This document shows, piece by piece, positions 43,687-44,181 of a stretch of DNA of 64,000 nucleotides. Numbering within the stretch: position 1 is the first letter of the stretch; every line of letters starts with the position of its first letter. The stretch is from Eledone cirrhosa (taxonomy: Eukaryota). The stretch is taken from the NCBI GenBank assembly GCA_964016885.1, contig OZ024740.1, positions 149,544,001-149,608,000 of the forward strand, given 5' to 3'. The position numbers were made by a program, and so were the translations under genes. The notes under the pieces were generated by a model that did not search any database, was not told the DNA's origin, and saw only the letters and a list, made by a program, of their open reading frames with translations.

Positions 43687-44181
43687 AAATTTCGTTTTCA
43701 TTTTGTTTCAATTTATCGTTTTCGGTATGCCTGACCGATTTAACTCACTCAATATGCAAATTAGGCTGCTCAGCCGTTAATTTTCATAAGGAAAGTATAT
43801 ACTTTCGAACGTTCAACTATCTGGCAGATGGGTAAACGGTGCTGATGATAGCTAACAAGCTTGAAACTAGTACATCGTTCCTGTGTCAGTGTTGAACAAA
43901 AAGGTGACGTGGTTGCCTTGACACCGTATGGCATAAATTCAGGCTGTTCAGTTTGTTTACAAACGAACAAAGCGACGTTAGCGCCGCTAAACTGATACGT
44001 GCATATATGTATGTGTACCTGTATGCATATGTATGTATATATGTATATATATATATATATATGTGCATGCTACTATACGTCTGTATACATATATGTATGT
44101 ACGTATACATGCATACTTACATTTAAGTAAGTGCCATACTAAGAGTGAGAAATGAAATTTCGTTTTCATTTTGTTTCAATT
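43687..44181 (+). repeat. Full monomer of retrozyme-like subfamily B
   Basis: ATGCAAAT at 43754, TATATA, HHR ACGGTG-CTGATGA-T-AGCT aaca AGCT-T-GAAA-CTAG-TA-CATCGT (43836-43878); terminally redundant hairpin sequence; followed by about 190 bp (TA)n. Confidence 0.9.

What the first reader, a model, noticed from the sequence alone, without database searches (positions are those of the whole stretch)
44146..44181. Dispersed monomers end at the same hairpin + T-run, directly fused to (TA)n
Seen: four independent copies (44181, 41448, 52803, inverted 26630) stop within about 15 nt after GAAATGAAA-TTTCG-TTT(T)CATTTT and run into (TA)n. Inference: this is the RNA 3' end (Pol III oligo-U terminator) or the RT recognition/priming site, analogous to a SINE 3' stem-loop. 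Exceptions are array A (ends at 39777 by a junction), array C (ends about 60 nt earlier) and the 27115 arm.
Basis: partly seen in the sequence, partly recalled or inferred. Interest (0 to 1): 0.7.

Follow-up and report, generated by a model that had tools for sequence, protein, structure and literature searches.

The report
Fixed insertion ends of ribozyme repeat
The shared stopping point is real: it most likely marks where a Penelope-type jumping-gene enzyme starts copying a small ribozyme-carrying repeat RNA into TA runs, a signature known for those jumping genes that here appears on one of their passenger repeats.

Summary
Four copies end within 3 nt of one site just after the hairpin and run into (TA)n. 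In two genomic runs of one sample this site is also the best-supported loose end shown (39 and 48 contigs). The ~430-465-bp unit carries a type I hammerhead, so it is a non-LTR retrozyme. The end lies 277-309 nt downstream of the predicted ribozyme cut and 8-12 nt beyond T4-T8 runs, and copies read through it, so a Pol III oligo-U end is unlikely. Each head-to-head pair has one long and one short arm. That is the Penelope-like-element (PLE) 'tail', explained in vitro by internal initiation of reverse transcription at two sites. Hydra-clade PLE fragments, a clade reported to insert into (TA)n, lie in the window, and 7 of 7 same-family pairs show the asymmetry. Verdict: new member of a known kind. 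It gives junction-level support for PLE mobilisation of animal retrozymes, which my searches did not find in print. The scan noted similar PLE ends on other DNA. No RNA data.

The parts
44149..44172 (+). AT-rich hairpin whose 3' arm is the T-run; lies inside the 'tail' between the two end sites
   Evidence: a hairpin with different letters sits at the matching place in subfamily B; folding energy alone is weak
44115..44181 (+). Tail segment between the short end site (about 44115) and the long end site (44181); inferred RT initiation module
   Evidence: (tails of 67 and 69 nt in the two A2 pairs)
44182..44369 (.). (TA)n tract, inferred target of insertion
   Evidence: absent after 18 of 18 internal hairpins
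43685..44181 (+). Retrozyme subfamily A2 copy: one 464-nt unit plus about 30 nt terminal redundancy, read through one hammerhead
43836..43878 (+). Type I hammerhead motif of the A2 copy (core starts 43842, predicted cut after 43872)
   Evidence: Rfam HH9 only weakly (E 0.32)
42387..43658 (-). Subfamily B array, 2.7 near-identical 466-nt units with hammerheads; 3' end at the short site into (TA)n; joined head-to-head to the A2 copy
   Evidence: Rfam HH9 E 5e-7 to 3e-6, below gathering score
43659..43687 (.). Short fold-back of B sequence at the B/A2 head-to-head junction
41259..41448 (+). 5'-truncated A1 copy ending at the long site, then a short TA run
52307..52802 (.). Head-to-head A2 pair: minus arm ends at the short site (52310), plus arm at the long site (52803); both in (TA)n
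26627..27115 (.). Head-to-head A2 pair: minus arm ends at the long site (26630), plus arm at the short site (27115)
31127..39777 (+). Subfamily A1 tandem array (about 430-nt units, about 93% alike; 7 of 17 hammerheads match the strict motif), interrupted at 37664-38798
23043..25165 (+). Broken Hydra-type PLE (DKT motif, RT); its 5' region equals the 80-nt tail of the pair at 30609-30815. Candidate kind of partner, not shown to be the partner
   Evidence: clade features
47816..48778 (-). Second Hydra-type PLE fragment (CxCx5C linker), close to a TA tract

Best explanation
The unit is a non-LTR retrozyme: a non-coding, hammerhead-bearing tandem repeat that borrows the RT/GIY-YIG protein of a Penelope-like element, most likely a (TA)n-targeting Hydra-type one. 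Shown in DNA: hammerhead motif, two fixed 3' end sites about 60-70 nt apart that bracket the hairpin, variable 5' truncation, head-to-head pairs with one long and one short arm, (TA)n on both outer sides. Inferred mechanism: the protein binds the hairpin-containing segment of a multimeric or circular RNA and nicks both strands of a (TA)n tract. It starts cDNA internally, just 3' of the hairpin on one strand and about 65 nt further upstream on the other, helped by 1-4 nt of TA microhomology. The two cDNAs, sometimes from different RNAs, join at their 5' ends. The fixed end is thus an RT start site, not the RNA's 3' end.
For: Hammerhead: 71 of 78 cells (91%) pair and 5 of 13 pairs change on both sides across 6 hand-picked copies of three subfamilies; A1/A2 73%, A/B 59% alike. 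Two sites hold 7 of 8 ends in the window; 0 of 400,000 uniform simulations gave this. Both sites recur outside the window: 33885 (39 and 48 contigs), 33826 (27 contigs), and 33820 in 6,510 RAD reads from another study. The long site is 277 (A1) and 309 (A2) nt past the predicted cut. Copy 43685 and the arm starting at 26854 extend 5' of a cut site, so their template was uncut there. 7 of 7 same-family head-to-head pairs that I listed between TA tracts have one longer arm (39-121 nt); one of these tails is the 5' region of a Hydra-type PLE. Literature: tail on one end of inverted insertions, and Hydra/Naiad insertion into (TA)n (10.1101/2021.04.23.441226); two internal RT starts, both strands cut and extended (PMC11167929).
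Against: No homology between the retrozyme and an autonomous PLE end was seen in the window self-comparison, which left out matches starting in array A, so the partner is not identified. The tail (60-70 nt) is longer than the 30-40 nt usually cited. Only 24 of 671 loose-end rows were shown, 61 nt of the unit (33722-33782) were masked, and X1 and X2 are one sample that may be the source of the assembly. Run X4 (another organism, 51 contigs laid) showed no TA end among its 6 rows. The RAD run is blind to the long site. The hairpin is energetically weak. The covariation set is small and related, so the shuffle control overstates it. The end at 39777 fits neither site.
Confidence: 0.72

Rival explanations
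1. Pol III transcript ending in the T-runs, primed near its 3' end like a SINE with a 3' stem-loop.
For: In A1 the only sense-strand T4+ runs lie at the hairpin and a few nt past the long site; a one-mismatch B-box-like 9-mer sits at unit position 127 in A1 and A2. Pol III transcription of schistosome hammerhead repeats is recalled, not read (listing only).
Against: Ends carry 8 nt beyond T6 and T8 runs; copies and arrays read through; no shared A/B boxes and none at that place in B; A2 and B have T4 runs elsewhere in the unit; the second site is not explained.
Confidence: 0.08
2. PLE-driven, but only the long end is an RT start; the short end (or both ends) comes from endonuclease resolution of the intermediate, or from self-priming on an antisense template.
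For: Both ideas are in print. Short ends sit in TA-like element sequence in several families and spread over about 10 nt. Fold-backs occur at inner junctions (43659-43687).
Against: The one in vitro PLE study maps both tail boundaries to RT starts.
Confidence: 0.12
3. DNA-level origin: satellite fragments are captured at breakable (TA)n tracts by microhomology repair, the hairpin acting as a break or stall site.
For: Junctions show 1-4 nt TA microhomology; with a 3-nt microhomology null a 4-end cluster has P about 0.05.
Against: Does not explain strand polarity fixed to the hammerhead sense, the long/short pairing, or the same pattern in PLE ends that lack this hairpin.
Confidence: 0.04
4. Non-autonomous Helitron/Helentron whose 3' hairpin plus T-run terminates rolling-circle transposition.
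For: Hairpin then T-run, tandem arrays, and a PIF1 helicase fragment at 341-1120; Helentron end features are recalled (listing only).
Against: Conserved, covarying hammerhead; variable 5' ends; asymmetric head-to-head pairs shared with PLE families; ends lie 8-12 nt past the T-run.
Confidence: 0.04

Closest known systems
Metazoan non-LTR retrozymes (Cervera and de la Pena 2020, PMC7229834; Li et al. 2026, 10.64898/2026.07.22.740005)
   Same: Tandem non-coding repeats of a few hundred bp, low GC, one type I hammerhead per unit with a short palindromic helix III, arrays plus dispersed copies, PLEs in the same genome.
   Different: In the parts I read, those papers infer the PLE partner from co-occurrence and pLTR phylogeny and leave priming open; they describe no fixed end sites, tail or (TA)n target. 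Expression and circularity were not tested here.
PLE insertion units with inverted pLTR and 'tail' (Arkhipova et al. 2013, PMC3846280; Craig et al. 2021; Frangieh et al. 2024, PMC11167929)
   Same: Head-to-head arms, 5' truncation, extension on one arm only, two end sites around a stem-loop downstream of the hammerhead, AT-rich target.
   Different: No ORF; tail 60-70 nt rather than 30-40; end sites 210-310 nt from the predicted cut; AT-rich rather than AC-rich stem-loop; 1-4 nt microhomology with the target, whereas the anole element starts at a non-homologous site.
Hydra clade PLEs (Craig et al. 2021)
   Same: (TA)n insertion, hammerheads; fragments with the DKT and CxCx5C motifs are in the window.
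   Different: Autonomous; no sequence link to this retrozyme was found.
SINE/LINE 3' stem-loops recognised by a partner RT (recalled)
   Same: A structured RNA element near the point where RT starts in a non-autonomous partner.
   Different: There RT starts at the RNA's 3' terminus on templated repeats; here it starts internally and the repeat is the target.

Membership tests
non-LTR retrozyme | Tandem repeats of roughly 150-450 (up to ~970) bp | tested here: met
   Periods 430, 431, 466; ranges
non-LTR retrozyme | Type I hammerhead in consecutive units | tested here: met
   Core motif in A1, A2, B; covariation; 7 of 17 A1 copies match the strict motif, with runs of consecutive ones. No Rfam hit at gathering score; HH9 below it
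non-LTR retrozyme | No coding capacity | tested here: met
   No ORF of 150 aa or more within the units of arrays A and B or the 43685 copy
non-LTR retrozyme | Self-cleavage and circular RNA in vivo | not testable with these tools
   No RNA holder listed
non-LTR retrozyme | Autonomous PLEs in the same genome | tested here: met
PLE-type insertion | Inverted 5'-truncated arm with a tail on one end only | tested here: met
   2 A2/A2 pairs and 1 B/A2 pair; 7 of 7 same-family pairs listed
PLE-type insertion | Homology of the unit to the pLTR of an autonomous PLE | tested here: inconclusive
   None seen in the window self-comparison, which left out matches starting in array A; no whole genome held
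PLE-type insertion | Target-site duplication | tested here: inconclusive
   Cannot be read inside (TA)n
Pol III SINE | Internal A and B boxes | tested here: not met
   Only scattered one-mismatch hits, not shared (box patterns recalled); no tRNA gene called
Pol III SINE | Copies end within the oligo-T run | tested here: not met
   4 of 4 extend 8-12 nt beyond it
Helitron/Helentron | Fixed 5' terminus | tested here: not met
   The five 5' junctions printed differ; feature recalled

The most novel reading that the evidence does not exclude
The 60-70-nt hairpin-containing tail is a portable cis-module by which a circular retrozyme RNA recruits a Hydra-type PLE protein. The protein primes from both nicked strands of a (TA)n tract, long site on one and short site on the other, can take two different RNAs in one event (B/A2 pair), and can roll round a circle (2.7 B units differing by 1 of 466 and 2 of 340 nt). 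This would supply the missing priming step of the animal retrozyme cycle and a minimal RNA signal for TA-targeted insertion.
Probability: 0.4. Interest if true: 0.62.

Novelty: new member of a known kind. Interest (0 to 1): 0.4.

Why it matters
How animal retrozymes are primed and by which enzyme is stated as open in the papers read. The junctions here carry the PLE-specific tail signature and point to two exact positions on the RNA and one target sequence, which makes the PLE-partner hypothesis testable in the published in vitro system. The parts (retrozyme, PLE tail, TA targeting) are each known, which caps the interest.

Tried and rejected
No whole genome was held, so the full breakpoint histogram was not possible. 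Rfam at gathering score: 0 hits; the miRNA-family hits at low threshold are TA-palindrome noise. Two exact-pattern scans of metagenome contigs: 0 loci. No RNA holder listed. RAD run X13 has 29,399 loose ends at 33863-33865 with agreement 0.34, which looked like a third site at the hairpin loop. I rejected them as a library effect because molecule ends at 33860, 33927 and 33930 coincide with the only two AATT sites of the laid unit; the enzyme is inferred, not on record. The roughly 3.5-fold fall of summed contig depth after the long site was not used as evidence, as that depth is no copy number and A2 diverges there. The 'at this site' column was not used because the reference unit has a variant at the site. 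Pfam named only a weak GIY-YIG and PIF1 among 8 ORFs; PLE clade was assigned from motifs and homologues instead. The third fold was a mis-chosen stretch and is not used. Earlier-findings look-ups by place and by sequence gave nothing relevant. An octopus origin is a recalled impression from the SINE at 44370 and was not tested.

Full report
Observation. At 44149-44172 an AT-rich hairpin ends in a T-run; element sequence continues to 44181 and then (TA)n runs to 44369. The copies ending at 41448, 52803 and 26630 (minus strand) stop at the same unit site, and 44181 stops 3 nt short of it. Inside array A the same hairpin is never followed by (TA)4 (0 of 18). With 8 ends on a 432-nt unit, four within 6 nt has P = 0.0006 under a uniform null, 0.006 and 0.054 under 2-nt and 3-nt TA-microhomology nulls. 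Only the 43685 copy is a full unit; the others are 5'-truncated.

Check outside the window. No whole genome was held. I laid four of 15 listed runs on one array unit, 33638-34067, at 80% likeness. In X1 (8,334 contigs laid, 469 only partly) and X2 (9,284 and 515; same sample) the best-supported loose end shown is at 33885 with an (AT)n consensus, 39 and 48 contigs. Position 33885 is the site of the finding. Of the 12 rows shown for these two runs, 3 run into TA: those two and 33826 (27 contigs); by eye the other 9 continue as diverged unit sequence. In RAD run X13, from another study, 6,510 reads leave the unit at 33820 and pass through a short A2-type stretch into TA. Limits: 647 rows were not shown, 33722-33782 was masked, X4 (another organism, 51 contigs) showed no TA end in 6 rows, and X13 cannot see the long site because its fragments end at an AATT in the hairpin loop.

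What the unit is. Each unit carries a hammerhead core on the strand on which the hairpin end is the 3' end. Three subfamilies occur: A1 (array 31127-39777, 41259-41448), A2 (43685-44181 and two inverted pairs) and B (42387-43658, minus); A1/A2 are 73% and A/B 59% alike, against 44-51% for shuffled B. Across six hand-picked copies the catalytic letters are invariant, 91% of 78 cells pair, and 5 of 13 pairs change on both sides; the copies are related, so the shuffle control overstates this. Rfam gives no hit at gathering score and sub-threshold Hammerhead_HH9 hits for B. 7 of 17 A1 ribozymes match the strict motif. This is the definition of a metazoan non-LTR retrozyme (PMC7229834, parts 2-3 of 6, discussion and passages read; 10.64898/2026.07.22.740005, parts 1-3 of 5 read). 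The short palindromic helix III fits dimer-dependent cleavage (PMC4209133, passages).

Is the end an RNA 3' end? Probably not. The predicted ribozyme cut is 277 (A1) or 309 nt (A2) upstream, so the site is internal to the monomer. The four ends include 9, 8, 8 and 12 nt beyond T4, T6, T8 and T4 runs; that metazoan Pol III stops within such runs is established knowledge. Copy 43685 spans two hairpins and one ribozyme, and the arm at 26854 starts 11 nt 5' of a cut site, so their templates were multimers or circles. No A-box/B-box pair is shared.

The exceptions form a second site. So 7 of 8 ends lie at two sites; 0 of 400,000 uniform simulations gave that. The eighth, 39777, is not fused to TA. 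All three head-to-head pairs of this family (26630/27115, 52310/52803, 42387/44181) have one long and one short arm. So do all 7 same-family pairs that I listed between TA tracts, two of them the A2 pairs, with extensions of 67, 105, 80, 121, 39, 69 and 89 nt. Other families repeat their long ends exactly: three copies at 30862, 45847, 53406; two at 30544, 40674; two at 21607, 30815; two at 26598 and about 49879.

Mechanism. PLE insertions typically have an inverted 5'-truncated arm and a 30-40-nt tail on one end only (10.1101/2021.04.23.441226, section 6 and passages; PMC3846280, passages). A purified anole PLE cuts and extends both strands of AT-rich DNA and starts cDNA at two internal sites in a stem-loop; the tail is the sequence between them, and uncut RNA is the main substrate (PMC11167929, parts 1-2 of 4). 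The window holds fragments with Hydra-clade marks: DKT in the 23057 ORF (36% identical over 425 aa to a full-length homologue) and CxCx5C in 47816-48778. All Hydra families were reported to insert into (TA)n. The 80-nt tail of the pair at 30609-30815 is the 5' region of the Hydra-type element at 23043, so an autonomous element here also has an internal fixed end. I infer that the retrozyme uses the same machinery. Shown: ends, polarity, pairing, ribozyme motif, presence of Hydra-type fragments. Inferred: transcription, circularity, which PLE acts, protein binding to the hairpin, that (TA)n is target rather than added. The B array (1 of 466 and 2 of 340 differences between units) suits one rolling event or a young array; array A (about 93%) is older or mixed.

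Rivals are listed with odds: resolution or self-priming variants of the PLE route (0.12), Pol III end (0.08), DNA repair capture (0.04), Helitron/Helentron (0.04). The hairpin's own stability is weak, so its role as the signal is not proven.

Novelty. Retrozymes, PLE tails and TA targeting are each in print, and non-autonomous head-to-tail PLE derivatives are described in algae. Searches did not return a paper, in the listings and the parts read, that maps retrozyme ends or shows the tail on them; the 2020 and 2026 papers leave priming open. The library lacks most subscription papers, and supplements were not seen. Earlier notes of this scan describe truncated head-to-head PLE ends, one set in a TA tract, in other genomes; they are unchecked and were not used as support. 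Verdict: new member of a known kind, interest 0.4.

Noticed in passing
window 27124-27690, 30609-30815, 49890-50392, 51948-52162, 53407-54532: Five head-to-head pairs of other families between TA tracts, each with one arm longer by 39-121 nt.
   Followed up: partly
window 43684, 41258, 26854: Three of five 5' junctions printed fall in hammerhead core letters; may reflect template switching at ribozymes or chance.
   Followed up: no
window 41518-54663 (TA tracts): Long TA tracts carry a recurring near-palindromic variant unit, 45 in one orientation and 7 in the other, and a TTAA variant next to some junctions; slippage, abortive RT starts or assembly effect.
   Followed up: no
window 44370-44577 and 61206-61407: Two copies (90% alike) of a tRNA-like SINE head; the first sits in the same TA tract as the finding. 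Resemblance to octopus SINEs is recalled only.
   Followed up: no
window 37664-38798: Insert interrupting array A in its TA-rich part, ending in a hammerhead-like motif typical of PLE ends (read by eye).
   Followed up: no
window 30862-31127: A fragment of another hammerhead family is joined head-to-head to the start of array A, like the B/A2 join.
   Followed up: partly
window 341-1964: PIF1-like helicase fragments, probably Helitron-derived.
   Followed up: no
window 63139-63625: 69-bp tandem repeat, 7 copies, with open frames on the minus strand.
   Followed up: no
window 17595-18908, 28671-29567, 56347-57120: Further PLE-like ORF fragments; only 28671-29567 gave a weak GIY-YIG hit.
   Followed up: partly
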